Shown in pieces: positions 1,935-19,459 of a DNA stretch of 20,000 nucleotides. This DNA comes from Chiloscyllium plagiosum. Taxonomy: Eukaryota. Location: NCBI RefSeq assembly GCF_004010195.1, contig NC_057718.1, positions 99,538,684 through 99,558,683 on the forward strand, written 5' to 3'. The position numbers and the translations under genes are program-made. Each line of letters begins with the position of its first letter. The stretch's first letter is position 1. The notes below the pieces were generated by a model, which had not been told where the DNA came from, did no database searches, and saw nothing but the letters and a program-made list of their open reading frames with translations.

Positions 1935-2625
1935 AACATTTATTCTCATCCCTAATAACCCTTAAAAAGGTGGGAGTAAGCTGCATTCATATAGCCCTTT
2001 CGGTGCAGGTTAAGGAGTGGAAGAATTTTGATCTAGCAATATTGAAGGGACAAGGATGTATTTCCAAGTCCGGATGGTGAGCGGCTCAGAGGGGGACTTG
2101 CAGGAGGTGGTGTTCCCATCCATCTGCTGCCCTTGTCCTTCCAGAAGGCAGTGGCTGTGGGATTGGAAGCTGCTGTCTAGGAAGTCATGGTGCACTTCTG
2201 CAGCGCATGTTGTAGCTAGTAGACACTGATGCTACTGAGCGTCGGTGGTGGAGGGAATGGATGCTTGTGGATGTGGTGCCAATTAAATGGGCTGCTTTGA
2301 TCTGGGTGGTGTCAAGCTTCATGAGTGTGGTTGGAGCTGCACTCATTCCTGTATTCCTGGTGAAGGGCTTTTGCCCGAAACGTCGATTTTACTGCTCCTC
2401 GGATGCTGCCTGACCTGCTGTGCTTTTCCAGCACCACTCTAAGCTAGGCTCTGGTTTCCAGCATCTGCGGTCATTGTTTTTACCGAGCTGCACTCATCCA
2501 GGCAAGTGGGGAATGTTCCATCACACTCCTGACTTGTGATAGATGTTGAGATGGCTTTGAGGAGTTCAGGGATGCTGTAGAATTCCCAGCCTCTGACCTG
2601 TTATTGTAACCACAGTATTTATGTG
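1935..2625 (-). mobile_element. Second CR1-group LINE 3' portion, interrupted by a PLE insert
   Basis: Reverse-complement homology to 647-1110 (e.g. tggtgttccca..tctgctgcccttgtccttc). Confidence 0.8.
2347..2484 (+). mobile_element. Short Penelope-like pLTR-derived insertion with 13-bp TSD
   Basis: TSD gagctgcactcat at 2334-2346 and 2485-2497; body matches the terminus of the GIY-YIG-encoding fragment at 9150-9660. Confidence 0.85.
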
Positions 2626-2627
2626 GA

Positions 2628-2653
2628 ATATATAAATATATATATATATATAT
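2628..2653. repeat. (TA)n microsatellite
   Basis: atatataaatatatatatatatatat. Confidence 0.9.
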
Positions 2654-3231
2654 CCGTAGTTATTTGTGTAAAATAAATATAACATCGGTGATAACATTTC
2701 CTGCTTTGTTTTACATTCAAGTCAAAGACTGCCAATACTACAGGGGAATGTCATATTGTAGAGCATTTCCTGTATTCCCTTATTCAGCAGAGATGTTCCT
2801 GTTCTGAATGGACTACTGTAGATATTTTGAATGAAGCGTGTCATTGTGATGGTACTGTTGGCACTTCCTGTGCTACAGGAAAATCCCAGGCAGACTGCCC
2901 TCTGATGCAAGAGATTAATCTTCAGACAGTCTGATTCATGCAAAGCTGGCCGAGTTTAAGACGTGCGCTCTCTGCTTTCCTCTTCCTTTGTTTTGGAGCA
3001 GATAGCTTCTTGGTTCTTTGAAGTGTCGTGTATGAGGATGCACGATGTCCTGCCAACTGAACGCTTTGTATCCGCTAATCGCGAGCCAGTGCAGGCTCTC
3101 TGTCACTCAGTGGGGCATGTTTTGTTAACCTTTGATTCAAGGTTAGTCTTAGCATTTTGATTTCCATACCTTGGAGGGAATATCGCAGAGGGAGTAACTT
3201 ATTTTGTCTCTGTTTTCCAAGCAGAGCCATA

Positions 3232-3508
3232 ATCATGGAATCCCTACAGTGTGGGGACAGGCCATTCAGCCCATCGAGTCCACACCGACCCTCGGAAGAG
3301 CATCCCATCCAGACCCAACCCCCCTACCCTATCCCTGCATTTTCCACGGCTAACCTACACACTATGGGCAAATTAGCACCCACCTAACCTGCACACCTTT
3401 GGACTGGGTGAGGAAATTGGAGGAGACCCACACAGACAGTCGCCCGAGGCTGGAATTGAACCTGGGTCCCTGGCACTGTGAGGCAGCATTGCTAACCGCT
3501 GAGCCACA
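3232..3508 (-). mobile_element. HE1 SINE, internally deleted
   Basis: Minus-strand A box (gtggctcagcgg), B box (ggttcaattcc), and CR1-derived tail (cacactgtagggattccatgat). Confidence 0.85.
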
Positions 3509-3839
3509 GGGATCTGGAGGTATTGGCAGTGTGGCAATGCTCACACTTTAAATCAGATAATGTTGGGTGTCTCTGCCAAATGAAGCAGAAATTCCCAAAA
3601 AGGATCCTGCATATGGATTTGATCCTCTCCTTACTTTGAAGCTGATGTTGTGGCAAAGTATCATCCAAAGGCATCCCTGGCAAATCAACATCAGTCAGTC
3701 ATCCGTATCCTTATTGCACACAGAATGCTGCCTGACTGATGTTCCTGTGGTAATCCTCACCTTTAAAGAGGCAGGAGCGCTCCATTAGTGAATTACATGG
3801 CTTGCATGTGTCTCTCTTTTTTATTCATTCATGTGATGC

Positions 3840-4032
3840 AGACAGGTTTGGGCTGACACTGTGCAAGTAACATTCACACCACACAAAGTGTCAAGCAATG
3901 ATCATTTCCAACAAGAGAGAATCTAACCATTGCTCTTCAGCATTCAAAGGCATTACTATCACCGAATCCCTCACACCAATATCCTGGGAGTTGTCATTGA
4001 CCAGAAACTGAACTGGACTTGCCACATTAATA
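3840..4032 (+). mobile_element. Degraded RT/thumb fragment of the second CR1-group LINE
   Basis: atcctgggagttgtcattgaccagaaactgaactggact encodes ILGVVIDQKLNWT. Confidence 0.75.
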
Positions 4033-4159
4033 ATTATTTCTATCCCTCGATTCCCATTGACTCCCGTTTCACTAGGGCTCCTTGAAGCCTAATTGTTGGA
4101 CCTTCATTTCATTGGCTGTCACTCTCACCTCCCCTCTGGAATTCAGCTCATTTGTCCAT

Positions 4160-4348
4160 GTTTAACCCAAGGCGGTAATGAGGTCAGGAGCTGAGTGACC
4201 CTGGGGGAACCCAAACTGGGCGTCACTGAGCAGGTTGTTGCTGAGCAGGTGCTGCTGGATAGCACTGTGGGTGACACGTTCTATCACTTTACTGATGATC
4301 AGGAGTACACTGACGGGGCGGTAATTGGCTGGGTTGGATTTGTCCTGC
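4160..4348 (-). mobile_element. Non-LTR reverse transcriptase N-terminal fragment
   Basis: DKSNPANYRPVSVLLIISKVIE...QFGFPQGHSAPDLIT, the canonical non-LTR RT domain 1-2 motifs. Confidence 0.9.
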
Positions 4349-4489
4349 GTTTTGTGTTTCAGAATAACATTGAAAGCAAGGCTTCCATTCTTGTTCCAGC
4401 TCTTGGGAGCTATCTCCTTGCCCTCCCCCATGTGAAGTGGTGCTCCTCAAGCTATCTAAGTAATAGTCTCTCTCACATGGAGGATAGGT

Positions 4490-5020
4490 GATCACACAGT
4501 GGTACTGTCAGAGGGAAGTAATTGAGAACTCCAGGCCACAGCTCTGAGGATAAATGGTTTGAATCTCACCATGTGCTTCCTGGGAGAGTGGTGGAAGCAG
4601 GAACTCTTACAACAAAGAATCTGGGTGAGCATTTAAAATGCTGGGGCACAGTGGGCTATAGACCGAGTGCAGGTAAAAAGGATTAATGTAGTTTGGTGTT
4701 TGCTGATCAGCATGGCAAGGTGGGTTGAAGGTCCTGTTTTTTATGCTGTATGACTGTATGGCAGGCTGGTGAAATTTGAATAGACTCTAGAAGAAAGAGC
4801 TAGCCTAATTATAACCATGTAAGGACTTTCAGTTGTTTAACAACTCAGATGGTTCGCAAATGCCCTTTAGGGAAGGAAACTGCCATCCTTACCTAGACTG
4901 GCTTATACGTGACTCCAGACCCACCGCAAAGTGGTTGACTCTTAAGAACCTCGAGGCAATTAGGGATGGGCAATAAATGCTGGCCTAGTCAGTGACACCC
5001 ATATCCCAGGAATGCATCAA
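4490..5020 (+). mobile_element. tRNA-derived SINE (partner of the second LINE), interrupted by a CR1 tail at about 4573-4757
   Basis: B-box-like ggtttgaatctc; core ggaaggaaactgccatccttacc..gtgactccagaccca; tail tagggatgggcaataaatgctggcc shared with the LINE at 647-1110. Confidence 0.75.
4573..4757 (+). mobile_element. CR1 3' end nested in a SINE
   Basis: gggagagtggtggaagcagg...gggttgaaggtcctgttt..atgctgtatgactgtatg CR1 tail. Confidence 0.7.
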
Positions 5021-5264
5021 AAGGATTATGTTTTTGGTTCCTCTGGTTAATTACTGTCACCTTGCCATTAAATAAAAACATGCCTAATGGAAACATTAAC
5101 CCCTTCCATTCATGAATCAATGATGGAAGGCCATGGGTGTAGAACTTCCTAAAGACCTGAGAACCGACTCGAATATTTGGTTGGCGTGAAATGTTACTTC
5201 ACTTGGTGAGCATGATGGTTTTCATGTCAGTCTCTCTATTTTCTCCTCTGCATGATGTGGAGGT

Positions 5265-5449
5265 GCCCGATGTTGGACTGGGGTGAACATAGTCAGAAGT
5301 CCCACAGTACCAGGCTACAGTCCAACAGGTTTATCTGAAACCACACGCTTTGTCAGGTGCAGTCATTGATGAAGGAGCAGCGCTCTGAAAGCTTGTGATG
5401 TCAAATAAACCTGTTGGACTAAAACCTGGCATCGTGTGACTTTTGACTT
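5265..5449. mobile_element. Fold-back PLE-terminus element (second family) with hammerhead-like motif
   Basis: Arms of about 60 bp, 5291-5351 vs 5388-5449 (agtccaacaggtttat / ataaacctgttggact); central ttgatga-a-ggagc-agc-gctct-gaaa-gctt. Confidence 0.7.
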
Positions 5450-5635
5450 TCTCCTGTGCAGTCAGAGGTAAGACAGGACCCAATTCTTTTCCTGGCTATG
5501 AATCTCAAAGGTGACCTGTGCTCAGTCAAAGCCATAGCCAAGTTAAAATGATCAGACCCAAGGTCCCATATTACTCGTAGAGTCCTTCATGAAATGTAAC
5601 AGTTCAGAAACAGTGGAGATGTCTATTGAGGAGTA

Positions 5636-6325
5636 GGCAATGTTCAGTACCACTCAGACCTCTCTGATATTGAAATAGTCTGTTTTTCCATGTAGTAAGA
5701 CCTGAACAGCATTCAGGCCTAAGCTGATAGGCTGCAAGTGATGTTTGCAAGTAGCTAATACATACCATCTTCAAGTTCCCCTCCAAGCTACTCACTGTCC
5801 TGACTGGGAAATATGTTGTTGTCCCTTCAATGTCGCTGGGTCAAAATCCTGAAATTCCCTCCCTAATGGCATTATGAGTCTACCCACAGCACACGGACTG
5901 TAGCAGTACAAGAAGGCACCTTCTCAAGGGCAACTAGGGTTGGGCAATAAATCCTCATTCACTATAAATCACCATCCTCATGACCTGTCCCACCTGTCAA
6001 TCTTCATTCCACCTATCCACTCCACCCTCCTCCCTGACCTATCACCTTTACCCCCACCTCCATCCACCTATTGCACTCTCAACTACCTTCTCCCCAGCCC
6101 CAACCCCCTCCCATTTAATCTCTCCACCCCTGAGGCTTCCAGCCTCATTTCTGAAGAAGGGCTTTTGCCTGAAACGTCGATTCTTCTGCTCCTCGGATGC
6201 TGCCTGACCTGCTGTGCTTTTCCAGCAGCACTCTAATCTTGACTCTAATCTCCAGCATCTGCAGTACCCACTTTCACCATGGATAATAAATGCCAGGCCC
6301 AGCCAGCAATGTCCATGTCCCATGA
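5636..6325 (+). mobile_element. Second CR1-group LINE remnant (RT piece plus 3' end) with a PLE inserted in its tail
   Basis: 5760-5953 homologous to 880-1078; tail resumes at 6281 (ataataaatgcc..agccagcaatgtccatgtccca). Confidence 0.75.
5954..6279 (+). mobile_element. Penelope-like element 3' region/pLTR
   Basis: C-rich tract plus ctgaagaagggcttttgcctgaaacgtcga terminus; homologous to 9150-9420 (-); imperfect TSD tgggcaataaat/tggataataaat. Confidence 0.85.
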
Positions 6326-6384
6326 GAAAAAAAATGTTTTAAACCTGTTATTACAAACAAGGTGGGGACCTGCTGAATGGGAGA

Positions 6385-6572
6385 CAGGATGGTACAATTA
6401 TAACATTTAAAAGGCATCTGAATGGGCAAATGAATCGAAAGGGTTTAGAGGGATATGGGCCAAATGCTGGCAAATGGGACTAGATTAGGTTAGGATATCC
6501 GGTCAACATGGACGAGTTGGACCGAAGGGTCTGTTTCTGTGCTGTACATCTCTATGACTCTGTGACTCCATG
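6385..6572 (+). mobile_element. CR1/HER1 3' end
   Basis: catttaaaaggcatctg...ggacgagttggaccgaagggtctgttt..ctatgactctgtgactc. Confidence 0.9.
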
Positions 6573-7004
6573 TAAGGAGTGAAGATGTTTATGAGTAAGG
6601 ATTTGGAATCAGCTATCCTGAAAGCATGCTGGGTCAATAGAAACGGAGATGTCCAAGGCATACGTACTATGGATTGTATGGGGTGTGCTGTCTATCAAAC
6701 ATTTGGAGCTGTAACATCTTATTTCCGGCATTTGCCAGTGATTTTTGGAACATTCTGTCTTTTCAGCCAAAATAGTTTATCCTGATGGATTGTAGATAGT
6801 TTTAAGTATGAAAGCAAAGTCATTTCCCAGACCTCATTTGAATTTTGCAGGATCATTTCCTTCCAGTGGGATGTAACTTCAGTTCACACAATGTTGGTCA
6901 TTCACAAGTACTGAAGACACTCCTGAATTAAATATGGCCGAACGGTGGGATAGACAAACAGAAACGTGGAATCGTTACAGCACAGAAGAAGGGCATTCGG
7001 CCCA

Positions 7005-7935
7005 TTGACTTCAGAAAGAAAGGAGGAGGACATGCCCCCATCTACATCAATGGAGCGGAGGTGGAGAGGGTGGAGAGCGTCAAGCTTCTCCAAGTGACAA
7101 TATCCGACAACCAGTCCTGGACCTCCCGCGTAGATGCGACTGTCAGGAAGGCACAACAACGCCTTTCCTTCCTCAAGCAGCTCAGGAAATTCAGCATGTC
7201 CATAAGGACCCTCACCAACTTCTACAGATGCACCACTGAACGCATCCAATCTGGGTGCATTATGGCCTGGTATCACAACTGCTCTGCCCAGGACCATGAG
7301 AAACTACAGAGAATGGTGTGCACAGTCCAGACTATTATGGGAGCCAACCTCCCATCCATGGACTCCATTTACACGGCTCACTGCCACAGAAAGGCTGCCA
7401 ACATTAAAGATCCTCCCACCCTGGTAACAATCTCCAAAAATTTTTCCATCAGGCAGAAGATACAGAAGCCTGAACACATGCACCAGCAGATTCAGGAACA
7501 GCTCCTTCCCAGCTGTTATCAGACTGCTGAATGGACCCTCTAGCCTCAAATAATGCTGACCTTGCTAACTTTAATCTCGCCCAGTACACGCCCTGTACAA
7601 TGTAACCTGTAGGCCTCAAACCAAGCCTTTTTGATTTGTATGATCTGCCTGCATTGCTCATTAGGGAGAAAGTGAGGGCTGCAGGTGCTGGAGATCAGAG
7701 CTGAAAAATGTGTTGCTGGAAAAGTGCAGCAGGTCAGGCAGCATCCAAGGAACAGGAGAATTCAGGAAGATGGGCTTATGCCCGAAACGTTGATTCTCCT
7801 GTTCCCTGGATGCTGCCTGACCTGCTGTGCTTTACCAGCAACACATTTTCAGCTCTGCATTGCTCATTAACAAAGTTTTTTGTTGTGCTTCGATGTGACA
7901 ATAAATCATTCAACTGATCAATAATCAATCAATCA
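7005..7935 (+). mobile_element. Rex1/Babar-clade non-LTR retrotransposon, 5'-truncated
   Basis: DFRK..HAPIYINGAEVERVES..KAQQRLSFLKQLRKF..LTNFYRC..CIMAWY is the typical Rex1 post-RT region; (ATCA)n tail at about 7900-7935. Confidence 0.85.
7664..7854. mobile_element. Fold-back PLE-terminus insertion with perfect 15-bp TSD
   Basis: TSD ctgcattgctcatta at 7649-7663 and 7855-7869; inverted arms 7696-7761 vs 7793-7857. Confidence 0.9.
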
Positions 7936-8004
7936 TGTCACCTCGGGCTCTCCGGATGAACATTATGACTCAATGCCACTCTCCTGCCTTTTCGTACTGA
8001 GAAT

Positions 8005-8530
8005 GAGCGGATTGCCTCATGAGGAAAGGCGAGACAGGGTTTAGAAGAGGCAGAGATGACTTAATTGAAGCATTTAGGTTTCTGAGGGGACTTGACTGGG
8101 TGCACATGGAAGGGATGTGAGAGAATCTAGGTTTACGGGCAACAGTTTAAAAATAAACGGTCATCAATTTAAGACGGCGATGAGGGAATATTTTCTCCCA
8201 GAGAGTTGTGAGTCTTTGGAATTCCCTCCATCAACAAGGCAATGGATGTAGTGTTTTTTAGTAGAAGTCAATGGATTCCTGATTCCCAACGGGATGAAAG
8301 CTTCTGGGGGGATATGCAGGAATGTCGAGTTGAAGTTAAAATCATGTTGAGCCACGACCTTTACTGAATGGTAGCGCAGGTTTGAAGGGCTGAATGGCCT
8401 ACTTCTGAGGAAAGGTCACTCGACCCGAGACATTCACTCTGATTTCTCTCCACGGATGCTGCCAGACCTGCTGAGCTTTTCCAGCAAATTCTGTTTTCGT
8501 TTCTGGCCGACTCCTGCTCCCAGTTCGCAC
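8005..8530 (+). mobile_element. Older CR1 3' fragment
   Basis: tttagaaga..agagatgacttaattgaa..tttctgaggggacttgac..gagggttgtg-like region, tail gggctgaatggcctac..ctcctgctcc. Confidence 0.75.
8404..8505 (+). mobile_element. Short PLE-terminus insert (third family) in CR1 tail
   Basis: ctgaggaaaggtcactcgacccgagac..ggatgctgccagacctgctgagcttttccagca; imperfect TSD tggcctacttctg/tggccgactcctg. Confidence 0.65.
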
Positions 8531-9149
8531 GTTTCTCCTGTAACGTTTTTGCGATTTAAGTAATCGTCCACCGTCCTTTTTAACACCTCATCGTGATTTC
8601 TTTACGGGTTGACTTTGAACGTTGCCAAAGCTTTGCAGCTTGTGCCGATCAGGATGAACGCAAGAACGCCAAATGATCGAATGGTCACTGCTCTCCCATC
8701 AGGCAGAGGGTGATTGGCAACCAGGATTAGAGAGAGAGAGGGACGGACTTTATTTCTGTTTGGTATCACATTTCTGAACCTGTGAAAACCTTGAGAGTTG
8801 CAGGATGTTCTGTTCATGATGCTGACAGACGTGAAGAGTGAGAGACACATGTAGCAAGCTCAGTTGTCACCCTCTGGCTATAACCCTCCCCTGCCCCCAT
8901 CTTTGCAGGACAGCAGCCCTCACTCCCACAGATGGTCACTCGTCCACACGACCTCATCTACAGTCCCAGCCGGTCAAAGGGACAGTTTGGTCTCTGGGTG
9001 TCCTCTCCAGGCTGAGATGAGCAAGAGTCACTCCCTCTAAGGACGGGACGCTGTCCCTTTAAATACTGCTCGCTGGCCTGATTTTGTGAGCCAGCAATCA
9101 GCCAGGTTCCAGGTCTAACCTCTGTACTTGCTCCCCATATGTTAAACCA

Positions 9150-9660
9150 AGTGTGGCGCTGGAAAAGCACAGCAGGTCAGGCATCATCCGAGAAGCAGGA
9201 GAGTCGATGTTTCGGGCTGAAGCCCTTCATCAGGAATGGAGAGGTGGAAGGGGGCTGCGAGATAAATAGGAGGGTGGCACTGGGGGAAAGGTAGCTGGGA
9301 AGGAGCTAGTTAGATGGAGGTGGGTAATGAAGGTGATAGTTCGGAGGGGAGGTTGAAGTAGATAGGTGGGAAGGAAGATGGACAGGTAGGACGGGTCAAG
9401 AGGGCAGTGCCGAGTTGGAGGGTTGGATCTGCGATAACGTGGGGGGGAGGGGAGATGAGGAAACTGGTGAAGTTGACATCAATGCCATGTGCTTGAAGGG
9501 TCCCAAGGTGGAAGATGAGGCATTCTTCCTCCAGGCGTCGGGTGGCTTGGATTTGGCGGTGGAGGAGGACTCGGACTTGCTCGTCCTTGGTGAGGTGGGA
9601 GGGGTAGTTGAAGTTTTCAGCCACAGGGCGGTGGGGTTGTTTGGTGCGTGTGTCCAGGGA
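9150..9660 (-). mobile_element. Penelope-like element: GIY-YIG endonuclease C-terminus plus pLTR
   Basis: PVAENFNYPSH...RRLEEECLIFHLGTLQAHGIDV matches the PLE GIY-YIG C-terminal pattern (PVAxHF...E..I..L.TL.P.G.N); followed by the C-rich tract and a hammerhead motif. Confidence 0.9.
9206..9233 (-). ncRNA. Minimal type I hammerhead ribozyme motif in PLE pLTR
   Basis: Minus strand CTGATGA-A-GGGC-TTCA-GCCC-GAAA-C-ATC; intact CUGAUGA and GAAA boxes around a 4-bp stem II. Confidence 0.65.
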
Positions 9661-9749
9661 CTGGACCTCAGACATCAAAATTAAACTCAAATGTACCACT
9701 GGCACCCCGTTTTGACAGGATTGCAAATTGAGAATTAGTATTTGTAGGC

Positions 9750-10035
9750 AGTCATAGAGTCATCCAGCACGGGAACAGACCCTTCGGTCCCACCAGTCCA
9801 TACCGGCCATAATCCCAAACTGAACTTAGTCCCACCTGCCTGCTCCTGGCCCATATCCCTCCAAACATTTCCTGTTCATGTCTTTATCCAAATGTCTTTT
9901 AAACATTGTAACTGTGCCCACATCCACCACTTCCTCTGGAAGTTCATTCCACACAGGAACTCTGTGTTAAAAAGTGTCCTTTTCAAAGCCTTTCTCCTCT
10001 CACCTTAATAATATGTCTGTTAAACTCCAATCTCC
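9750..10035 (-). mobile_element. CR1/HER1 3' end
   Basis: gtcatagagtcatccagcacgggaacagacccttcggtcc...agttcattccacaca. Confidence 0.9.
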
Positions 10036-10074
10036 TCTTGTCCACGATAGGTTTTTTGAAAGAAAAGCCCCAAC

Positions 10075-10345
10075 TGCGTGTTGCTAGTCATTCATTGCCC
10101 AGAGAGCAGTTGAGAGTCAACCTCATTGCCTTGGTCTGGAGTCACATTGGGGCCAGACCAGGTCAGGATGGCAATCTTTCTTCCCTGAAGGGCACTAGTG
10201 AACCAGATGGGCATTTAAACAACAGTTGATAACATTAACCATTAGGCCAGCTCCTAATACCAAATTCTATCAAATTTAAACTTCCCTGTTGGGATTTGAA
10301 CCTACGTCTGGGGTTTTAAATTATTAGCACAGTGGTATTCCTCCT
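10075..10345 (-). mobile_element. tRNA-derived SINE (LINE-2 partner family)
   Basis: gagagtcaacc.cattgc..ggtctggagtcacat..ggccagaccagg; gggatttgaacc B box on minus strand. Confidence 0.75.
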
Positions 10346-10777: not shown

Positions 10778-11422
10778 ACATGTCTTTTCCCTAGGGTAGG
10801 GGAGTCAAAAACTAGAGGGCATGGGTTTAAGATGAAAGAACTAAGATTTAACAGGGACCTAAGGGACAACCTTCGCACACAGAGGGTGGTGCATATATGG
10901 AATGCATTGCCAGAGGAGGTGGTGGAGGGTGGTACAATTACAACATTATGAAGGCATCTGGATTATTTTTCCCTTTATTCATTCACAGGATGAGGCCATC
11001 TGTGGCTAAACCAGCATTCATTGCCTGGAGGGCAGTTTAAGAGTCAACCACATTGCTGTGGTCTGGAGTCACAGGTAACGATGCCAGTTTCTTTCCCCGA
11101 AGGACATCAGTGAACCAGATGAGGGTCTTCCCCAACAATGGATTCATGGTCAACATTAAACTTGTAATTTCAGACTTTTTTTTTGTTCGCCCAAATTCAA
11201 TCCAACTGCAGGCCTTAAACCCAGGTCGCCAGAACTTTACCTGGGTCTCTGGATTAACAGCACAGCAATGACACCACTAGGCCTTCACCTCCCAGTGTAC
11301 ATAATGGGGACATGAATAGGAAGGGTTTCGGGGGATATGGGTCCAGGTTAATTTAGGATATTTGATCGGCATGGACGAGTTGGACCGAAGGGTCTGTCTC
11401 TGTGCTGTATGAGTCTCTCTAT
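10778..11422 (+). mobile_element. CR1/HER1 3' fragment split by a SINE insertion
   Basis: LFPRVGESKTRGHGFK..QRVVHIWNALPEEVVEGGTI, resuming at about 11305 with the CR1 tail. Confidence 0.85.
10965..11296 (-). mobile_element. tRNA-derived SINE (LINE-2 partner family), near full length
   Basis: ttattcattcacaggatg..ccagcatt.attgc tail, gagtcaaccacattgctgtgg core, head gaggtgaaggcctagtgg on minus strand. Confidence 0.75.
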
Positions 11423-11618
11423 ATTGTTTTGAAATGTTCCCTGACACACTGACTGTTTGGACCGTGCCAGTGTTCACAAGATACTTAAAAGATACCATGC
11501 ATTTCTCCACCTGTGACTTTTGTTATTACAAAGAGCTCTCTTGGCTTAAATCCTGCAGAATTGTCACTATGTCATTGTAAGGTGCTTGTATCGCAGGGCG
11601 CTGTTCAATATTACTTAC

Positions 11619-11784
11619 AACGTCTTCCAAAAGGTGGAAATCCCAGGGCATTACACATTTGGATACAGCAAAGACCCCCATATCGAATTTACACCACCCG
11701 CATGCATCAAAGGATTCCAAATAGATCCAATTTAATCTTTGTGGTGTCCCACATGACCTTTTTAACATTTTCAATGGCAGTGAT
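11619..11784 (-). CDS. Candidate internal exon, unknown product
   Basis: Acceptor ..ctatttaaag|, donor |gtaagtaat; 166 nt with one open frame SLPLKMLKRSCGTPQRLNWIYLESFDACGWCKFDMGVFAVSKCVMPWDFHLLEDV; no homology recognised. Confidence 0.3.
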
Positions 11785-12009
11785 CTTTAAATAGTCGCGA
11801 GTGTATGAAATAAAATAGTGAACAGTATCTGTTTGCACATATCACAGCCCCCTTCTCTTCTCCCAAGGCAGCCTAGTCTTGCCAAATGCATTCCAAACGA
11901 TGTTTTGAAAAGCATATTCCCTCCCATTCCGGAATGTAGGCCAGTCTCGCTCTCTGATCTCCCCGGGACGTCTGTCCTGCTCGGTGACACACCAATGTGC
12001 CAGTTTGGA

Positions 12010-12330
12010 CGGGTGTAGGCTTCCACAGATCCTCCCTCCAATGACATGAGCCAGAAACCTACCCTGATGGAGGCGCTGTCCTTTCACTGAGTCATTCAAT
12101 CCAAAGTCCTGTCTGCTCTCCCAGCTGGATGGGAAAGATCCCATGGCGCAGTTCAAAGAAGACCACCCTCCGGGGATATCCCCCCCCCCCCTCAGCAGAT
12201 TGGGCAGCCAATCCAATCTGTATTTCATCCAACAGTGAAGAAACGACAATAGCAAGTCGTTGGCTGTAACACATTTTGAGATGTCCTGAGGTCATCAGGG
12301 AGCCATATAAAAGCACAACCATCTTTTTTC
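12010..12330 (+). mobile_element. Decayed Deu-domain SINE (SacSINE1/AmnSINE1/LmeSINE1 superfamily)
   Basis: ggaggcgctgtcctttc..tgag..gtcctgtctgctctc..tggatgggaaagatcccatggc..ttcaaagaaga matches the recalled Deu core; tail ttggctgtaa..ttt.agatgtcctgaggtc..gccatataaa.gca. Confidence 0.7.
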
Positions 12331-12654
12331 CCTCCTCGTGAAAACATTTCCATTATAAACTCCTGCGACAGAGGCATAACAATATTTGACAGCACTTTGT
12401 GCAACTGAAGTACAGTGTATTCCCCTCACAGCATGTTTGGTCATCATTGGCAAATTTACTTTCATGCAACAAGGACATTCGCCCTGATACAGATACTTAA
12501 ATAAAGAGATTCTTTGCTTGATGGAATTTGTAAAGTTTGTAATCCGCGATTTAAAAGGAAGTTGCTTTAATTTTGGCAGTTTAGCACAGCACATTATGGG
12601 GCAATTATGATCAACACCCATGAGCAAAATTCCAATCAAAGAAAAGAGAGGAAA

Positions 12655-12790
12655 CGTAGAAAAAGGAGTAGGCCATTCAGCCCCTCGGGTCTGGTCTACT
12701 ATTCAATGAGATCACAGCCCTAAGTGTGGCCTATCTCTATCGACCTGCCCCTGACCCATATTCCCTGAACACCTTTGCTAGACAAAATGA
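12655..12790 (-). mobile_element. CR1 3' tail fragment
   Basis: aggagtaggccattcagcccctcg..attcaatgagatca. Confidence 0.65.
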
Positions 12791-12824
12791 CTAATTATTG
12801 CTCAGATTTACTGAGAAAGCAACA

Positions 12825-12932
12825 GAGTTCGTCTTAACTGAATCCACATTTTACCACGTGCCATAGTAAGATTTGAACCATGCCCTGAGATATTAGTCTG
12901 GGGGTCTGGGCTACCAGCCCAATGCCACCTCC
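12825..12932 (-). mobile_element. 5' head of tRNA-derived SINE
   Basis: gccat.gt.agatttgaacc..attagtctgg; similar to 16650-16725. Confidence 0.5.
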
Positions 12933-13189
12933 TCTTCTTTGTTAACAAATGCTTACATTGAAAGAGAGACCTACAACCTGAACTTTCTAAAGTGCCTTTG
13001 ATGGAACAACACACATGATAACAGAGGTGCAGAAAGTGTGAATGAGGAGGCCAGTTTTGAGGCTGTTTGTTTTAGAGATGGGGAGAGCTTGTGGAGTTGG
13101 GAACGGAGGGCATCAACGTGCAGAGACATGATACAGTGGAGGCAGAAAGGGATTCAGTGAAATAGGGTCAGGGACAGGGTCAATCTCAT

Positions 13190-13990
13190 GTAACCCAGCT
13201 TCTTCCTCCTTATCAAACAAGTTTCTGATTGCCTTTTGAAATCCTGCACTGAGCTGTCCTCCACCACATCCTCAGGCAGTACATTCCAGACCCGAAAAGG
13301 TGACTAACATTTCCCTCCTACCACTTTCGCTCCTTTTACTAATAACTGTAAATCTGCATCCTCAATCCTTTCACGAGTGGGAACAGTTCCTCTCTATGTC
13401 TCCCTGGTATCAGTCCAGATTCCCTCCCAGTTTTGGAATATTTTTGTCAGCCTCCTCCCAGACAAACGGTCCCAGTCAATCGGCCTACTTGGGCTTTCTC
13501 AGGCCTGAGCCTGTTCTTATACACTGTTTCTCCGAGGCCTCACACCGTTCCTGAAGAGTGGCACCCTGACCCGGACACAATATTCCCAGCTGAGGCCAAC
13601 CTGCCACTTATACGAGTTCAATATTACCTCCTTACTCTGTACACCTTGCCTCTCTTAATGAAGCTGAAGACACCATATGCCTTAACATTATTCTTCCAAC
13701 CTGCTCTGCCACCTTTAGTGACTTGCACACAGTTCCTCGACTCCCACACTCACCCATTTTCGACTTAATGGTCAGAAAGACCTCTTCTGTTCCGTACGAC
13801 TTCATGATTCTTTAGACAGTACCCTTTCTTTTATAACATCCCTCCATTTTCTTCCTACAAACACCTATCAGCTCAGACCTCTCCACATTGAGCCTAACCT
13901 GCCAACTATGTGCCCACTCCACCAACCTATCTTTGCCCTTATGGATGTTAAACTTTCCCCTTGCTGTATACAATGCTTCTATATTTCTTT
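13190..13990 (-). mobile_element. Old, heavily diverged CR1 ORF2 fragment
   Basis: DRLVEWAHSWQVRLNVERSELI (post-RT region); gacacaatattcc.agctgaggccaacc like the RPxLEYCVQF motif. Confidence 0.7.
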
Positions 13991-13994
13991 CATT

Positions 13995-14070
13995 AAGAAT
14001 CACACAGCACCAGGTTATAGTCTAACAGATTTAGTTGGAAGCAATAGCTTTCACAGCGCTGCTCCTCTGG
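13995..14070 (-). mobile_element. Truncated copy of the 5265-5449 PLE-terminus family
   Basis: cacacagcaccaggttatagtctaacagattta..tagctttc..agcgctgctcct. Confidence 0.65.
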
Positions 14071-14249
14071 CACCTCCACTTCAAATTTCTTATTATCTAT
14101 AAAGCCTGAAGTTGTGCCTCAAACAACCTGGGTGATCCCAAAGTGGAAATTTCAGAGAAAGGGAGGAATAGGGTAGACGCTGAGAGACTGTTGCCCCTTG
14201 GCTCCTGGAGAGAATACAATGACTTGAGACTGAGAGTTGAGGAGGTCTT

Positions 14250-14450
14250 TATATCGCAGTGGATGGTGTCCATGCCTCTGAGCCATGAGCTCTGGATTCA
14301 AATCCCATCCTGGGACTGAGTGACCAAGGAATTGATAACGCGTTCATGATGTGGCAGAGTGGGGTGAGTTTCAATGACAAGTTCTAACATCTTTTCATGA
14401 CAGTTGGTAGGATTCCTGGCAAGCCATATGTGATCGGAGGAATTGGAGCT
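14250..14450 (+). mobile_element. Probable degraded tRNA-derived SINE
   Basis: cgcagtgg A-box-like, cctctgagcca..ggattcaaatcccat B-box-like; family not recognised. Confidence 0.4.
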
Positions 14451-14454
14451 TACA

Positions 14455-14585
14455 TTTACCCCTGACTAATACAACTAAACTATACATCCCTGAACACTAT
14501 GGGAAAAATTAGCATGGCCAATTCACCCTAACCTGCACATCTTTGGATAGTGGGAGAAAACCGGAGCACCCGGAGGAAACCCACC
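14455..14585 (-). mobile_element. HE1 SINE fragment
   Basis: ttagcatggccaattcaccctaacctgcacatctttgga..gagcacccggaggaaaccca (V-domain). Confidence 0.85.
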
Positions 14586-15254
14586 ATCACTATCCTTGGC
14601 TCTAGACCACAACATGCCTGGAAGAGCACCTTCTGCTTCCCCCTGCTGGCTGGATGGTTGGTGAAGATCAGATTAGCACCAGCAGCGCAGGGTTCGAGCC
14701 CCAATTCCCCCAGGGGTGGAGCTGCCTCTTTATTTTACCCATGGTGCAGTCTGAGGAGCTGTGGATCAAGCCTGTTGCTGGGCAGAGAGCTGGAGAAGAA
14801 GTCAACGAGTAGACTGTCAGCCATTTTGCCTCAGTGCCTCGCTATAATAGATTTAATAGTTCCTACAATAGGTATAATTCACTTTGAGGATTTGGAATAT
14901 TTTAAGACAGAGAGCTGTGGATTCCCAACTCTGCAAGTGCACTTGAGACAGATTTGTTTTAAAATCAAATCGGAATTTTGGGAATTGAGAGCAGTAATAA
15001 TTGGACTGGAAAGCGGATTGCTGTCAATGTGTTTGTTCAATGGAGATGCAATCGAAATCCTGCTCCTTTTCCTCATGTTCTCATCAGTGTAGCACATGAA
15101 AAAAACAATATCTATCGCCATGGTGAAGCATTCTTGAAGAAACAATGAACATTGATCCAAGCTCAGCTGAATGATCCTGAATATCGCTGTCTTTCTCTAT
15201 TCATGACAGGATGTGGGCATCTCTGAGAAGGTCAGATTTGGCTGCCCACTCCTA

Positions 15255-16441
15255 GAGTCACAGAGTCATAGAGATGTACAGCATGGAAACAGACCCTTCG
15301 GTCCAACCTGTCCATGCCGACCAGATATCCCAACCCCACCTAGTCCCACCTGCCAGCACCCGACCCATTCCCCTCCAAACCCTTCCTATTAATATACCCA
15401 TCCAAATGCCTCTTAAATGTTGCAATTGTACCAGCTTCCATCACATCCTCTGGCAGCTCATTCCATATACGTACCACCCTCTGTGTGAAAAAGTTGCCCT
15501 TTAGGTCTCCTTTCTATCTTACCCCTCTCACCCTAAACCTATGCCCTCTAGTTCTGGACTCCCCGACCGCAGGGAAAAGACTTTGTCTATTTACCCTATC
15601 CATGCCCCTCATAATTTTGTAAACCTCTATAAGGTCATCCCTCAGCCTCCGACGCTCCAGGTAAAAAAGCCCCAGTCTGTTCAGCCTCTCTCTATAGCTC
15701 AGATCCTCCAACCCTGGCAACATCCCTGTAAATCTTTTCTGAACCCTTTCAGGTTTCACAACATCTTTCCGATAGGAAGGAAACCAGAATTGCACACAAT
15801 ATTCCAACAGTGGCCTAACCAATGTCCTGTGCAGCCTCAACATGACCTCCCAACTCCTGTAGGAGAAAGTGAGGACTGCAGATGCTGGAGATCAGAGCTG
15901 AAAATGTGTTGCTGGAAAAGCGCAGCAGGTCAGGCAGCATCCAAGAAGCAGGAGAATCGACGTTTGGGGCATGAGCCCTTCTTCAGGAACTCCTTCAGGA
16001 ACTCCCAACTCCTGTACTCAATACTCTGACCAATAAAGGAAAGCATACCAAAAGCCACCTTCACTATCCTATCTACCTGCGACTCCACTTTCAAGGAGCT
16101 ATGAACCTGCACTCCAAGGTCTCTTTGTTCAGCAACACTCCCTAGGACCTTACCATTAAGTGTATAAGTCCTGCTAAGATTTGCTTTCCCAAAATGTCGC
16201 ACCTCACGTTTATCTGAATTAAACTCCATCTGCCACTTCTCAGCCCATTGGCCCATCTGGTCCAGGTCCTGTTGTAATCTGAGGTAACCATCTTCGCTGT
16301 CCATGACACCTGCAATTTTGGTGTCATCTGCAAACTTACTAACTGTACCTCTTATGCTCACATCCAAATCATTTATGTAAATGACAAAAAGTAGAGGGTC
16401 CAGCACCGATCCTTGTGGCACTCCACTGGTCACAGGCCTCC
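15255..16441 (-). mobile_element. Young 5'-truncated CR1/HER1 LINE with RT catalytic core, interrupted by a PLE insert
   Basis: SGVPQGSVL..LF.IYINDLD..KFADDTK, then LVRPLLEYCVQFW..RGHRF; (gagtca[c/t]a)n tail. Confidence 0.97.
15862..16001 (-). mobile_element. Short PLE-terminus insertion with perfect 15-bp TSD
   Basis: TSD ctcccaactcctgta at 15847-15861 and 16002-16016; hammerhead box mutated (CTGAAGA..CAAAC). Confidence 0.9.
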
Positions 16442-16728
16442 ACTAATCGCCCCTGAACTGAGGATTTACTAGGGGCATTTCAGAGGGCCGTTAAACCCCA
16501 TTGCTGTGGGCCTGGAGTCACGTGTAAACCAGACCAGGTAAGGATGGCAGATTTCCTTCCGCTAAACAACATTAGCGAACCAGATGGGCTCTTAACAACA
16601 ATTGATGGAGGTTTCGTAGTCATCATTAACTGAATTTTAACTCCACCAATTACTGTGACGGGATTTGAACCCATGCCCAATGAAAATTAACCTGGATTAC
16701 AGGATGAGCAATATTACCATTATATCAC
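16442..16728 (-). mobile_element. tRNA-derived SINE (LINE-2 partner family); its tail lies at about 15195-15254, across the CR1
   Basis: ccagaccaggtaaggatggcagatttccttcc core, gggatttgaaccc B box; the tail acaggatgtgggcatc..tgccca is on the far side of the CR1. Confidence 0.75.
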
Positions 16729-16767
16729 CGTTAAATATACGGCTCAACCACTAATCATAAAATATAC

Positions 16768-17585
16768 AGAGTCATAGAGATGTACAGCATGGAAATAGAC
16801 CCTACAACCCAACTCCTCCATGTTGACTAGATATCCCAACCTCAACTAGTCCCATTTGCTCGCACGTATCCCTCCAAACCCTTCCTATTCATATACCCAT
16901 CTAGATGCCTTTTAAATGATGTAATTGTACCAGTCTCCACCACATCCTCTGGCAGCTCATTCCATACACGTACCACCCTCTGCATGAAAAAGTTGCCATT
17001 TACATCCCTTTTAAATCTTTCCCCTCTCACTTTAAACCCATGCCTTCTAGTTTTGGATTCCCCAATCCTGAGAAAAATACCTTGTTTATTTACCCTATCC
17101 ACATCCCTCATGCTCTTACAAACCTCTATAAGGTCACCCCTCAGTCTCCGACACTCCAGGGAAAACAGATACCCCAGCCTATTCAGCCTCTCCCTGTAGC
17201 TCAAACCCTCCAACCCTGGCAACATCCTTGTAAATCTTTTCTGAACTCTTTCAAGTTTCACAACATCCTTCCTATAGCAGGGGGAACAGAATTGCACGCA
17301 ATATACCAAAAGTGGCCTAACCAATGTCCTGTACAGCCGCAACATGACCTCCCAACTCATATGTTTAGATCAGAGTGGTGCTGCATCTGCAGTGCTCACT
17401 TTTCCCCTCCCAACTCCTATACTCAGTGCACTGACCAATGAAGGCAAGCATACCAAATGCCTTCTTCACTATCCTGTTGACCTGGGACTCCACTTTCAAG
17501 GAGCTATGAATCTGCACTCCAATGTCTCTTTGTTCAGCAACACGGCCCAGGACCTGACCATTAAGTGTATAAGTCCTGCCCTGCT
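16768..17585 (-). mobile_element. CR1/HER1 LINE, 5'-truncated
   Basis: 172-aa ORF2 C-terminus SWEVMLRLYRTLVRP...WNELPEDVV..FKRHLDGYM. Confidence 0.97.
17363..17405 (+). mobile_element. Micro-insertion of PLE terminal sequence in CR1
   Basis: TSD cctcccaactc(a/c)tat at 17348-17362 and 17406-17420; insert is ttagatcagagtggtgct (inverted PLE piece) plus gcatctgcagtgctcactttt (PLE end, compare 6254-6275). Confidence 0.8.
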
Positions 17586-17818
17586 TTGAGTTTCATTGTG
17601 TAAAGTGTGATTAAGAAGAATCATGTGTTAGAATTTTACAACTGTTACACCAAAGTTTTAGATTGAGAACGCAGCATTCATTTCACAGCAGAAAGTCGGA
17701 AGATGATGAAATGTTAAACATTAAGTCTGAATTCCGTGGCATATACTCTGACCAAAGACATTTGGGGTAATTCTAATGTCCTTCCAGGCAAGGAGAGCAG
17801 AGGGAATCTGGGCTTCTC

Positions 17819-18013
17819 TCACAGACAGGCTCTCACAGAAACTCTTGGCAGAAGAACAGCCAAAGCAGAGCCAAGAAAAACAACAAGAAGAAAAATAGAG
17901 GCGAATGTTTTGTCTACAGGGGAAGGGTTTCTCATCCTAATCACATCTTCAGTGTTCGACAGAAACTCTTTCAGCTCTTGCCGCTTTGATCTGAATGGGT
18001 CCCCAGGGTTTCC
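17819..18013 (-). CDS. Probable coding exon with a hydrophobic helix; gene unidentified
   Basis: Branch cttaac plus pyrimidine tract plus cag| acceptor; frame opens near the acceptor and encodes GNPGDPFRSKRQELKEFLSNTEDVIRMRNPSPVDKTFASIFLLVVFLGSALAVLLPRVSVRACL*; non-repeat sequence. Confidence 0.5.
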   Translation of the reverse strand, partial: GNPGDPFRSKRQELKEFLSNTEDVIRMRNPSPVDKTFASIFLLVVFLGSALAVLLPRVSVRACL

Positions 18014-18154
18014 CTGGGGTGAAAGTGGATGTTAAGCAGGAGCGGGAGAATTGGGAGAGGCGAGTCAAGGTGGGGTTGGCGGGGTTTTCGGGCAGCATCA
18101 CTCAGGGAAGCAGGCAATGAGAGGAAATGGCATGCACGAGAATAGGATTATCGA

Positions 18155-18495
18155 GCGGCACAGTGGCACAGTGGTGGGCGGCACGGTGGCACAGTGGTTA
18201 GCACTGCTGCCTCACGGCGCCAGAGACTCAGGTTCAATTCCCGCCTCAGGCGACTGACTGTGTGGAGTTTGCACATTGTCCCCGTGTCTGCGTGGGTTTC
18301 CTCCGGGTGCTCTGGTTTCCTCCCACAGTCCAAAGATGTGCAGGTTAGGTGAAATGGCCATGCTAAATTGCCCGTAGTGTTAGGTGAAGGGGTAAATGTA
18401 GGGGAATGGGTCTGGGTGGGTTGCGCTTCGGTGGGTCGGTGTGGATTTGTTGGGCCGAAGGGCCTGTTTCCACACTGTAAGTTATCTAATCTAAA
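18155..18495 (+). mobile_element. Full-length HE1 SINE (V-SINE)
   Basis: Pol III A box tggcacagtgg, B box ggttcaattcc, V-domain, CR1-derived tail gggccgaagggcctgtttccacactgta, ending atctaatctaaaaaa. Confidence 0.92.
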
Positions 18496-18540
18496 AAAGA
18501 AGGCAGGAGACATACAAGAACCGACAGCAGGTGAGCAGAG

Positions 18541-18590
18541 GGGAGGCGATGACCTCGTGGTATTATCACTGGACTGTCAATCCAGAGGGA
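18541..18590 (+). mobile_element. Isolated 5' head of the tRNA-derived SINE
   Basis: gggaggcgatgacctcgtggtattatcactggactgtcaatccagag resembles the head of 10965-11296. Confidence 0.55.
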
Positions 18591-18608
18591 GAAAGGGTGC
18601 TGAAAGAG

Positions 18609-18911
18609 CAGATCAAGTGATCGGAACGTGAGAGTGACAGAACAATGGTGACAGAACCTGCCTGACTGGAAAGAACATTTGCATAAAGAACATTTCCCTC
18701 CACACTTCATCTGGACTGGAAACGTTAGCTTACTCTCTCTCCGTGGATCAGATCAAGTGATCGGAACGTGAGAGTGACAGAACAATGGTGTATCTACCTG
18801 CCTGACTGGAAAGAACATTTGCATAAAGAACATTTCCCTCCACACTTCACTTCATGCTCTGATGAAGAGTCATCTGGACTGGAAACGTTAGCTCACTCTC
18901 TCTCCATGGAT
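18609..18911. repeat. Tandem duplication, units 18609-18748 and 18749-18911
   Basis: Both units start cagatcaagtgatcggaacgtgagagtgacagaacaatggtg and end tctctcc(g/a)tggat; unit 1 has a short internal deletion. Confidence 0.95.
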
Positions 18912-18987
18912 GCTGCCTGACTCACTGTGATCTCCAGCATTTGTTGTTTTCAGCACAGATTCCAGCCTCTGCAGTCATTTGCTCCTA
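18853..18987 (+). mobile_element. PLE-terminus element (fourth family) with hammerhead-like motif
   Basis: gct-CTGATGA-a-gagtc..gactg-GAAA-cgtt-agc then ggatgctgcctgac..ctccagcatt..ctgcagt. Confidence 0.7.
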
Positions 18988-19237
18988 ATACGTTTGATTT
19001 AACAGGCTGGGTTGAAAATGTGTTATTTATGTAAAACTCTACATTGACCAACATTTGCGGGAATGTACATGTAGAAAGACAAGATGTTTCTCATTAATAC
19101 CAGTTTAACAAAGCTATTAATTGACAAGAAGTAATGAAAAGCACAAGTTTGTTCCTTTCTCCTTCCCACGTACATTTCATAGAATTCTAAGAGTGTGGAA
19201 ACATGCCATCTGGCCCAAAAGGTCCAACAGGTCAGGC

Positions 19238-19397
19238 TTGGAAAAGCACAGCAGGTCAGGCAGCATCCTAGGGGCAGGCAAATCAATGTTTTGAGCATAA
19301 ACCCTTCATCAGAAATGGCTCTCGCTTAAAATGTCAATTCTCCCGCTCCTCGGATGCTGCCTGAGCTGTTGTGCTTTTCCAGCACCACACTCTCGAC
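19238..19397. mobile_element. Fold-back PLE-terminus element, degraded
   Basis: Arms tggaaaagcacagcaggtcaggcagcatcc / ggatgctgcctgagctgttgtgcttttcca; minus-strand CTGATGAagggtt. Confidence 0.8.
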
Positions 19398-19459
19398 ATG
19401 TATCAACTGCAGCTCAATGACTAGAAGGAGAGTTCACACTAGTTTAAATTATTTACCCT

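What the first reader, a model, noticed from the sequence alone, without database searches (positions are those of the whole stretch)
2357..19312. Dense population of minimal hammerhead-ribozyme motifs in at least four short Penelope-derived families
Seen: CTGANGA-A-[stem II]-GAAA-(CG/GC)T(C/T) or single-mutation variants at 2357-2384, 5366-5394, 6151-6178, about 7765-7790 (3' half only), about 8405-8435, 9206-9233 (-), about 15958-15986 (-), 18859-18889 and about 19285-19312 (-). Stem II differs between families (GGGC/GCCC, GGAGC/GCTCY, GGTC/GACC, AGTC/GACT) while the boxes stay constant, which looks like covariation. Helix III is reduced to a short palindrome (ACGT, AACGTT, AAGCTT). Established: PLE pseudo-LTRs carry minimal type I hammerheads thought to act as dimers, and the 9150-9660 copy links this terminus to a GIY-YIG ORF. 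Inference: shark genomes may hold very large numbers of ribozyme-bearing non-autonomous PLE ends that behave like a SINE or retrozyme class. Most copies here carry core mutations and may be dead.
Basis: partly seen in the sequence, partly recalled or inferred. Interest (0 to 1): 0.72.

Follow-up and report, generated by a model that had tools for sequence, protein, structure and literature searches.

The report
Penelope retroelement stubs carrying minimal hammerheads
These short repeats are end-pieces of Penelope-type jumping genes in shark-like DNA, each with a tiny hammerhead ribozyme motif of an already described kind that is broken in most copies, and they are likely dead-end DNA copies of the front of the element's own RNA rather than a separate mobile family.

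Summary
All nine motifs are present; stem II covaries across four families. They fit the published minimal hammerhead of Penelope-like element (PLE) ends (Cervera 2014), including the extra base after A9 and the palindromic helix III. A model built from 51 non-window motifs finds 6 of 9 at E<0.01. The carriers show PLE insertion anatomy: 13-15 bp target duplications in 5 of 11 insertions (1 of 300 controls), inverted arms, a 3' end about 120 nt past stem II, and one copy joined to the C-terminal half of a PLE endonuclease. Only 3 of 9 copies keep both catalytic boxes; losses favour CpG sites. No tandem units occur in the window, so the retrozyme/SINE reading is unsupported. Short copies start 1-9 nt before the ribozyme, not at its cut site. 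The two long copies show TATA-like and initiator-like motifs there. Likely mechanism: reverse transcriptase starts internally near the front of an uncut PLE transcript and runs off its 5' end (inferred). Cleavage was not tested. This scan has noted the same thing many times on other DNA (498 findings, at least 32 genomes). Verdict: new member of a known kind.

The parts
2349..2484 (+). Family A short PLE end: hammerhead 2357-2384 (A6 changed to G) plus tail; 15-bp target duplication 2334-2348 / 2485-2499 (1 mismatch)
   Evidence: (E 2.7e-08)
5253..5445 (.). Family B inverted two-arm insertion: minus arm 5253-5353 with the full tail, plus arm with hammerhead 5366-5394 (C3 lost); 13-15 bp target duplication 5238-5252 / 5446-5460
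   Evidence: not found by model R1
5956..6279 (+). Family A long copy: about 195 nt of pLTR, TATA-like CATTTAA at -39, initiator-like motif with A at 6147, hammerhead 6151-6178 with intact boxes, tail to about 6279
   Evidence: (E 2e-08)
7664..7854 (.). Family A inverted two-arm insertion; last ~40 nt of tail on the left (minus) arm only; hammerhead 7764-7791 with broken first box; perfect 15-bp target duplication 7649-7663 / 7855-7869; the arm junction lies within 2-3 nt of the predicted cut site on one arm, with two possible parses
   Evidence: (E 2.7e-04)
8404..8503 (+). Family C short PLE end: hammerhead 8405-8434 (GAAA read as GAGA, palindrome lost); weak 9-bp flanking repeat
   Evidence: model R1 E 4.4 (not significant)
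9149..9657 (-). Family A-like long copy: C-terminal half of PLE GIY-YIG endonuclease (about 9648-9442), pLTR with TATA-like TATTTAT at -35 and initiator-like motif with A at 9237, hammerhead 9233-9206 (boxes intact, helix III ACAU), tail cut about 45 nt short
   Evidence: 59% identity over 69 aa to P0028; E 4.8e-06
13995..14083 (.).
15862..16001 (-). Family A short PLE end inserted in a CR1-like LINE: hammerhead 15986-15959 (G12 changed to C), 12-nt duplication at the 5' junction, perfect 15-bp target duplication 15847-15861 / 16002-16016
   Evidence: (E 4.1e-07)
17363..17405 (.). 43-nt inverted tail-only insertion (no hammerhead) at the same site, within 1 nt, of another CR1-like LINE copy; 15-bp target duplication (1 mismatch)
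   Evidence: (family D2)
18707..18748 (+). Partial second copy of the family D motif inside a local 140-bp duplication
   Evidence: (D12)
18855..18988 (+). Family D short PLE end: hammerhead 18859-18889 with intact boxes, 3-bp stem I, G.G mismatch at the base of stem II
   Evidence: (E 0.0022)
19228..19400 (.). Family A inverted two-arm insertion: minus arm with hammerhead 19312-19285 (G12 changed to A) ending at position -4; plus arm starting in stem II at 19317
   Evidence: (E 0.16)

Best explanation
These are end-pieces of several Penelope-like retrotransposon families, each carrying the known minimal hammerhead motif, and the short ones are likely dead-end cDNAs made when the element's reverse transcriptase started at its internal start site near the front of an uncut transcript and ran off the 5' end. 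Steps: (1) a pLTR promoter starts a transcript about 4 nt upstream of the ribozyme core, so the hammerhead is the first ~35 nt of the RNA (inferred from motifs and copy ends); (2) the RT/GIY-YIG protein nicks target DNA and starts copying about 120 nt past stem II (shown in vitro for the anole element; here inferred from the shared 3' end); (3) starting at the copy of that site at the RNA's front gives a ~130-nt insert, while starting at the downstream pLTR copy gives long, variably truncated inserts (inferred); (4) priming from the second nick gives inverted two-arm inserts within a 13-15 bp target duplication (anatomy shown, mechanism inferred); (5) the inserts lack the upstream promoter and decay, fastest at CpG sites in the core (decay shown; loss of activity inferred). 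The ribozyme would cut only as a dimer or with protein help, and cutting is probably not needed for insertion.
For: PLE identity: the 9648-9442 frame matches elasmobranch RT+GIY-YIG proteins. In a metagenome set, 32 of 126 oriented motif rows have a PLE protein match in the locus, mostly upstream in the same sense. Insertion anatomy: target duplications scoring 11 or more in 5 of 11 insertions against 1 of 300 random pairs; five inverted two-arm units; tail on one arm only at 7664-7854, as described for PLEs (PMC8557442). Shared 3' end: 641 raw reads have loose ends behind 6275, about 120 nt from stem II against 111-118 nt in PMC11167929. 5' ends: arms at 2349, 5362, 7760, 8404, 15989, 18855 and 19316 begin 1-9 nt before C3 (5362 and 18855 are approximate). 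Raw-read depth rises from about 110 in the best pLTR bin to 1475 over the ribozyme. Loose ends pile at 9237-9238 in 3 of 3 runs with data. Both long copies have a TATA-like motif 31-35 nt before an initiator-like A at -4. Decay: 11 changes in 36 CpG cells against 26 in 156 other cells.
Against: No transcription start was mapped; the TATA-like and initiator-like motifs are short and seen in only 2 copies. The Drosophila virilis element starts about 120 nt upstream of helix I from a TATA-less promoter, so the arrangement is not general. The depth step is partly an artefact of subfamily divergence just upstream of the core: loose-end consensuses behind 9238 and before 6147 continue as pLTR-like sequence. 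In DNA contigs the ribozyme exceeds the pLTR only 3-4 fold and the endonuclease bin only 1.5 fold, and the tool states these depths are not copy numbers. The extra G expected from a cap is not clear: it is the first loose letter at 9237 in X1 and X16, but not in X15 or X21, and no window junction shows it unambiguously. That the tail is the ORF start was not shown.
Confidence: 0.6

Rival explanations
1. Ordinary 5' truncation of PLE 3' ends: RT starts in the downstream pLTR and stalls or is cut off at the structured hammerhead (or a protein bound there), so ends cluster without any transcription start at that point.
For: Heavy 5' truncation is the norm for PLEs. 2 of the 6 family-A copies with a ribozyme are long. 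DNA-contig depth falls only 3-4 fold upstream. Several arms end inside stem II (14066, 19317).
Against: A stall should leave ends on the 3' side of the structure, but the cluster lies just past its 5' edge, at an initiator-like A about 31-35 nt behind a TATA-like motif.
Confidence: 0.25
2. An independent non-autonomous class (SINE- or retrozyme-like): short units are transcribed from short master copies, cut and perhaps circularised by their ribozymes, and mobilised in trans by PLE protein.
For: Very high abundance (11 insertions in 20 kb; 110,513 contig records laid on 441 bases in X1). Rare head-to-tail joints 6275 to 6151 (1 contig in X1, 5 in X11). Short copies are more over-represented in RNA runs (13-15 fold) than in DNA (3-4 fold). 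Retrozymes were reported in one chondrichthyan.
Against: No tandem unit in the window. Short copies lack the upstream promoter motifs and match no tRNA or other Pol III family in Rfam. They share sequence with long copies. Reads lie on both strands, at most 1.5:1 over the core. Unit ends do not fall at the cut site. 5 of 6 whole units fold no better than shuffles (z between -1 and +0.4).
Confidence: 0.1
3. The ribozymes are vestigial in these lineages: they are kept only because they overlap the promoter, ORF start or protein-binding site, and never cut.
For: Family A stem I is only 2 Watson-Crick pairs. In all three intact-box copies the hammerhead fold is less stable than the predicted minimum-energy fold, as monomer or dimer. 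Cleavage was dispensable for insertion of the anole element in vitro.
Against: Stem II changes on both sides between four families while the boxes stay fixed. In 51 non-window motifs stem I covaries (score 0.442 against 0.129 shuffled). The anole ribozyme cuts with protein help. Nearest-neighbour energies ignore the catalytic core.
Confidence: 0.15

Closest known systems
[quoted passage not shown]
   Same: Type I layout, extra base between 9 and 10.1, G10.1-C11.1, palindromic 15.2-16.2 with no loop 3, several consensus families per genome, mostly single motifs attributed to truncated PLEs, and opposite-strand pairs close together.
   Different: Stem I is 2-3 bp rather than 4-5 and stem II is 4-5 bp. 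Density is far above the 4,000 (coelacanth) and 9,000 (Xenopus) they report. Sharks are not mentioned in the parts read; supplements were not read.
PAc, Poseidon element of Anolis carolinensis (Frangieh et al. 2024, PMC11167929; parts 1-2 of 4 read)
   Same: Insertion 3' ends lie about 110-120 nt past the start of stem II, with an optional tail; both target strands are nicked.
   Different: Shark homologues carry the CX4CX2C linker of Neptune/Nematis elements, so the clade differs. An ORF start in the tail was not shown here. Mass short copies are not discussed in the parts read.
Neptune-clade endonuclease-positive PLE insertion units (Craig et al. 2021, PMC8557442; passages read)
   Same: 5' truncation, inverted adjacent copy, tail on one end only, zinc-finger-like linker in homologous proteins.
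   Different: The linker region is not in the window copy, so the clade is assigned through homologues only. Targets here are other LINE copies, not microsatellites.
Non-LTR retrozymes (Cervera and de la Pena 2020, PMC7229834, passages read; Li et al. 2026, bioRxiv 10.64898/2026.07.22.740005, parts 1-3 of 5 read)
   Same: Non-coding, carry a type I hammerhead, related to PLE pLTRs, dispersed monomers exist.
   Different: Those are tandem repeats, mostly with canonical ribozymes, expressed as circles. The units here are single or inverted and have minimal cores.

Membership tests
PLE minimal type I hammerhead | CUGANGA and GAAA boxes flanking stem II, with NUH | tested here: met
   Both boxes and NUH intact in 3 of 9 copies; the read majority over 6150-6185 differs from the 6151 copy only outside the boxes in the rows shown
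PLE minimal type I hammerhead | Extra nucleotide between A9 and G10.1; palindromic helix III without loop | tested here: met
   Extra base in 9 of 9; ACGU or AGCU in 6 of 9, ACAU (CpG decay) in 3
PLE minimal type I hammerhead | Stem II covariation between families | tested here: met
   Pairs 10.2-10.4 change on both sides across 4 families; small n
PLE minimal type I hammerhead | Stem I of 4-5 bp | tested here: inconclusive
   2 bp in family A, 3 bp in D, possibly 4 in B; a 2-bp helix I is published for D. virilis; the comparison set pairs 92, 92, 81 and 63 of 102 at positions 1-4
PLE minimal type I hammerhead | Self-cleavage as a dimer or with protein | not testable with these tools
   No begin/end pile in raw RNA reads, but the library is poly(A) single-cell and about 2% was read
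Endonuclease-positive Penelope-like element | RT plus C-terminal GIY-YIG ORF upstream of the pLTR | tested here: met
   Window fragment is 59% identical over 69 aa to P0028, which hits GIY-YIG above its cut-off and RVT_1 below it; only the C-terminal half is in the window
Endonuclease-positive Penelope-like element | Inverted 5'-truncated arms and tail at one end | tested here: met
   Five inverted units; one-sided tail at 7664-7854 and 5253-5445
Neptune clade | CX2-5CxxC linker between RT and endonuclease | tested here: inconclusive
   Present in homologues P0010, P0012, P0018, P0028, P0033, P0034, P0036, P0041, P0042; region absent from the window copy; no RT tree was built
Non-LTR retrozyme | Head-to-tail tandem repeats with a hammerhead in each unit | tested here: not met
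   0 of 11 insertions; rare joints elsewhere (1 and 5 contigs)
Non-LTR retrozyme | Abundant small circular RNA | not testable with these tools
   Only poly(A) raw reads and contigs were available
SINE | tRNA-, 5S- or 7SL-derived head with internal Pol III promoter | tested here: not met
   No such Rfam match over any copy at E up to 10; the units begin with the ribozyme. A and B boxes were not searched separately
SINE | Independent master lineages distinct from the autonomous partner | not testable with these tools
   No genome held; within the window short and long copies are 77-88% alike over ribozyme and tail

The most novel reading that the evidence does not exclude
In shark-lineage PLEs the hammerhead is the capped first ~35 nt of the mRNA, and tens to hundreds of thousands of ~130-nt genomic copies are strong-stop-like run-off cDNAs from an internal RT start site near the RNA's front. 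The genome would then be a fossil map of the transcription start, the RT start sites and, at a minority of inverted junctions, the ribozyme's cut site in the germ line.
Probability: 0.45. Interest if true: 0.6.

Novelty: new member of a known kind. Interest (0 to 1): 0.33.

Why it matters
What PLE hammerheads do, and whether they cut in vivo, is still open (PMC8557442, PMC11167929). The motif class and its link to truncated PLEs have been in print since 2014, so the observation itself is ordinary. The value lies in numbers: with about one insertion per 1.8 kb in this window, junction statistics could test where PLE RNA starts, where RT starts, and whether cut RNA is ever copied. It also matters in practice: these ends invade predicted protein models in elasmobranch annotations.

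Tried and rejected
Rfam scan: no hammerhead family at E up to 10; the miRNA-like hits are just the inverted arms, and the weak U6 hit at 1530-1587 lies in CR1-like LINE sequence. Own-genome search: no genome held. Pfam on the window's endonuclease fragment: no hit. Word-index protein search with that fragment: 0 of 16 candidates. Search with the tail peptide P0027 to test whether it is the ORF start: 0 of 1 candidate, uninformative. Viral contigs: 0 matches. Metagenome loci: none of 127 rows carried the shark tail motif, so they serve only as an outside comparison, and the search pattern fixed three stem II pairs. No RNA holder was listed in the run search; run X22 laid 0 reads. No begin/end pile at the cut site in X21; the library cannot test this. 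Whole-unit folding: 1 of 6 units had z = -2.35, the rest -1 to +0.4. Tail consensus fold: 7 pairs, 0 compensatory. Energies and stem pairs for 18859 were off by one base and were redone. A 3' splice site at the AG at 6141-6142 was considered; no GT..AG joint appeared among the 15 joints shown (264 not shown). My first clade guess (Poseidon) was dropped. Upstream-homology counts in the metagenome set (41 of 75 under 30 nt) were not used, because gapless extension and subfamily mixing inflate them.
Full report
Observation. A scan for both boxes with at most one mismatch plus a stem II of 4 bp or more gave 11 positions against a mean of 3.5 (maximum 6) in 30 Markov simulations; 7 are reader sites, 1 is a missed fragment and 3 are unrelated. 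The sites at 7765 and 8405 are too decayed to pass. Rfam holds no model that finds them. As an outside test I collected 123 metagenome loci with a similar core, picked 51 diverse motifs of 126 with enough flank, and built a model. In that set stem I, which was not in the search pattern, covaries (covariation score 0.442 against 0.129 shuffled, 0 of 500 shuffles as high; relatedness is not controlled). The model finds 6 of the 9 window sites at E<0.01 and a seventh at 0.16, and misses families B and C, as expected from its fixed GGG/CCC stem.

Ribozyme anatomy. Stem II pairs 10.2-10.4 change on both sides between the four families while the boxes stay fixed. Every copy has the extra base after A9, and six keep the helix III palindrome; both are published marks of PLE minimal hammerheads (PMC4209133). 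Only 6151, 9233 and 18859 keep both boxes. 9233 has lost the palindrome, 18859 has a G.G mismatch at the base of stem II, and 6151 has a G.U there. In six family-A cores there are 11 changes in 36 CpG cells and 26 in 156 other cells, which fits methylation decay (inference). Stem I in family A is two Watson-Crick pairs, then a mismatch and one more pair, also in the read majority. In the comparison set positions 1-4 pair in 92, 92, 81 and 63 of 102 motifs. Predicted hammerhead folds are less stable than alternative folds as monomers and as dimers, but these energies ignore the core and do not test activity.

Carrier elements. The frame at about 9648-9442 on the minus strand has 26 relatives at E up to 0.001 among 1.84 billion proteins. 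A profile of eight such sequences found 21 longer proteins; those with species names are all from cartilaginous fishes. P0028 hits GIY-YIG above the Pfam cut-off and RVT_1 below it, and is 59% identical to the window piece over 69 aa. The window piece lacks the GIY and YIG motifs because it is truncated. Nine homologues carry a CX4CX2C linker before the endonuclease, which PMC8557442 gives as a mark of Neptune and Nematis elements; the clade is thus assigned through homologues only. The host is inferred to be a shark from these hits; I did not identify it.

Insertion anatomy. The window holds 11 insertions plus one local duplicate, 2,063 bases in all. Five have 13-15 bp target duplications scoring 11 or more, against 1 of 300 random pairs; I chose the boundaries after seeing the sequence. 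Five are inverted two-arm units, and at 7664-7854 the last ~40 nt are on one arm only, the arrangement described for PLEs. Raw reads end on the element behind 6275 (641 reads), about 120 nt past the start of stem II. The anole element starts reverse transcription 111-118 nt into an ORF that begins at stem II. No unit is tandem. Head-to-tail joints from 6275 to 6151 appear in 1 contig of X1 and 5 of X11.

Abundance. X1 laid 69,589 contig records on 9050-9800 and 110,513 on 5900-6340, which include flanking LINE pieces. Unique flank depth is about 10 and summed depth over the ribozyme is 1.5-3.2 million. The tool states that this is no copy number. Allowing for up to 31-fold overlap, my rough inference is 10^4 to a few 10^5 family-A copies. 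Earlier scan notes report 160,000-240,000 exact cores in this genome (not tested here).

Where short copies start. Seven arms begin 1-9 nt upstream of C3 (two approximate). Raw-read depth in X21 is about 110 in the best pLTR bin, 22 just upstream of the core, 1475 over the ribozyme and 2894 over the tail core. Loose ends pile at 9237-9238 in X1, X21 and X16. Both long copies have a TATA-like motif 31-35 nt before an initiator-like A at -4; I looked for these after an earlier scan note named them. Against this: subfamilies diverge just upstream of the core, so part of the step is alignment clipping; DNA contigs show only a 3-4 fold step over the pLTR and 1.5 fold over the endonuclease bin; the extra G expected from a cap appears as the first loose letter in X1 and X16 but not in X15 or X21; and the D. 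virilis start is TATA-less and about 120 nt further upstream. Reads lie on both strands, at most 1.5:1 over the core, which fits passive read-through in host transcripts; a poly(A) library cannot show short or circular RNA. One junction (7760-7768) lies within 2-3 nt of the predicted cut, and opposite-strand joints at 6151-6186 (8, 6 and 2 contigs in three runs) are compatible with arms joined at start and cut site, but two parses are possible and the numbers are small.

Mechanism. Most likely the PLE transcript begins at the ribozyme's 5' edge and so carries an RT start site about 130 nt from its front. Starting there runs off the RNA and inserts a promoterless stub; starting at the downstream pLTR gives long copies. 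Shown: sequence anatomy, target duplications, shared ends, endonuclease link, decay. Inferred: transcription start, run-off, twin priming, loss of activity. Untested: cleavage. Rivals are stalling at the ribozyme (0.25), an independent SINE- or retrozyme-like lineage (0.10) and, on the separate question of activity, a vestigial ribozyme (0.15).

What is known. Read: PMC4209133 parts 1-2 of 4; PMC11167929 parts 1-2 of 4; bioRxiv 10.64898/2026.07.22.740005 parts 1-3 of 5; passages of PMC8557442, PMC2377424, PMC7229834, PMC6765202, PMC5680766, PMC6155905 and PMC8455134. Lunse et al. on dimer cleavage was not held and is known here only through the review. Eight library searches listed no paper devoted to shark PLE hammerheads or to cap run-off in PLEs. 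The library lacks most subscription papers and Repbase, and I read no supplements; those of the 2014 and 2026 papers may list chondrichthyan motifs. Hammerhead numbering and the TATA and initiator consensus are recalled, not from a call. This scan has already noted the same class in 498 findings from at least 32 genomes; these are unchecked notes and not independent evidence.

Verdict. Real, abundant, mostly decayed PLE minimal hammerheads: a new member of a known kind, interest 0.33. The run-off reading is the part worth testing.

Noticed in passing
window 15862-16001 and 17363-17405: Two different PLE-end insertions sit at the same site (within 1 nt) of two homologous CR1-like LINE copies, with their 3' ends on opposite sides; a third copy of the LINE at 1470-1666 is empty. 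This suggests a preferred target sequence nicked on either strand.
   Followed up: partly
window 15981-16005: 12-nt tandem duplication at the 5' junction of the 15986 copy that repeats the first bases of the ribozyme; looks like slippage during junction repair.
   Followed up: partly
window 18606-18849: Local 140-bp duplication that includes part of the family D ribozyme; both copies share the G.G mismatch in stem II.
   Followed up: no
L037, L044, L099, L110: Metagenome loci with two hammerheads head to head on opposite strands a few dozen bases apart, the same inverted layout as in the window, so it is not shark-specific.
   Followed up: partly
proteins P0020, P0038, P0046, P0047: Annotated elasmobranch proteins (neuromedin-U receptor, receptor-transporting protein 3-like, DCC, HHAT) carry PLE endonuclease fragments; either annotation errors or exonised repeats.
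   Followed up: no
window 6932-7543 (+): 203-aa frame from a LINE RT C-terminal region that hits Pfam ALKBH8_N at E 4e-10.
   Followed up: no
window 18155-18470, 3245-3507, 506-628: Copies of a repeat family with a tRNA-like head that resembles the shark HE1 SINE (name recalled, not tested; families D14, D18, I15, I22).
   Followed up: no
lay of window 5900-6340: The ribozyme-to-pLTR depth ratio is 13-15 in RNA or RNA-guessed runs but 3-4 in DNA contigs; long copies may be purged from transcribed regions, or contig depth may be skewed.
   Followed up: no
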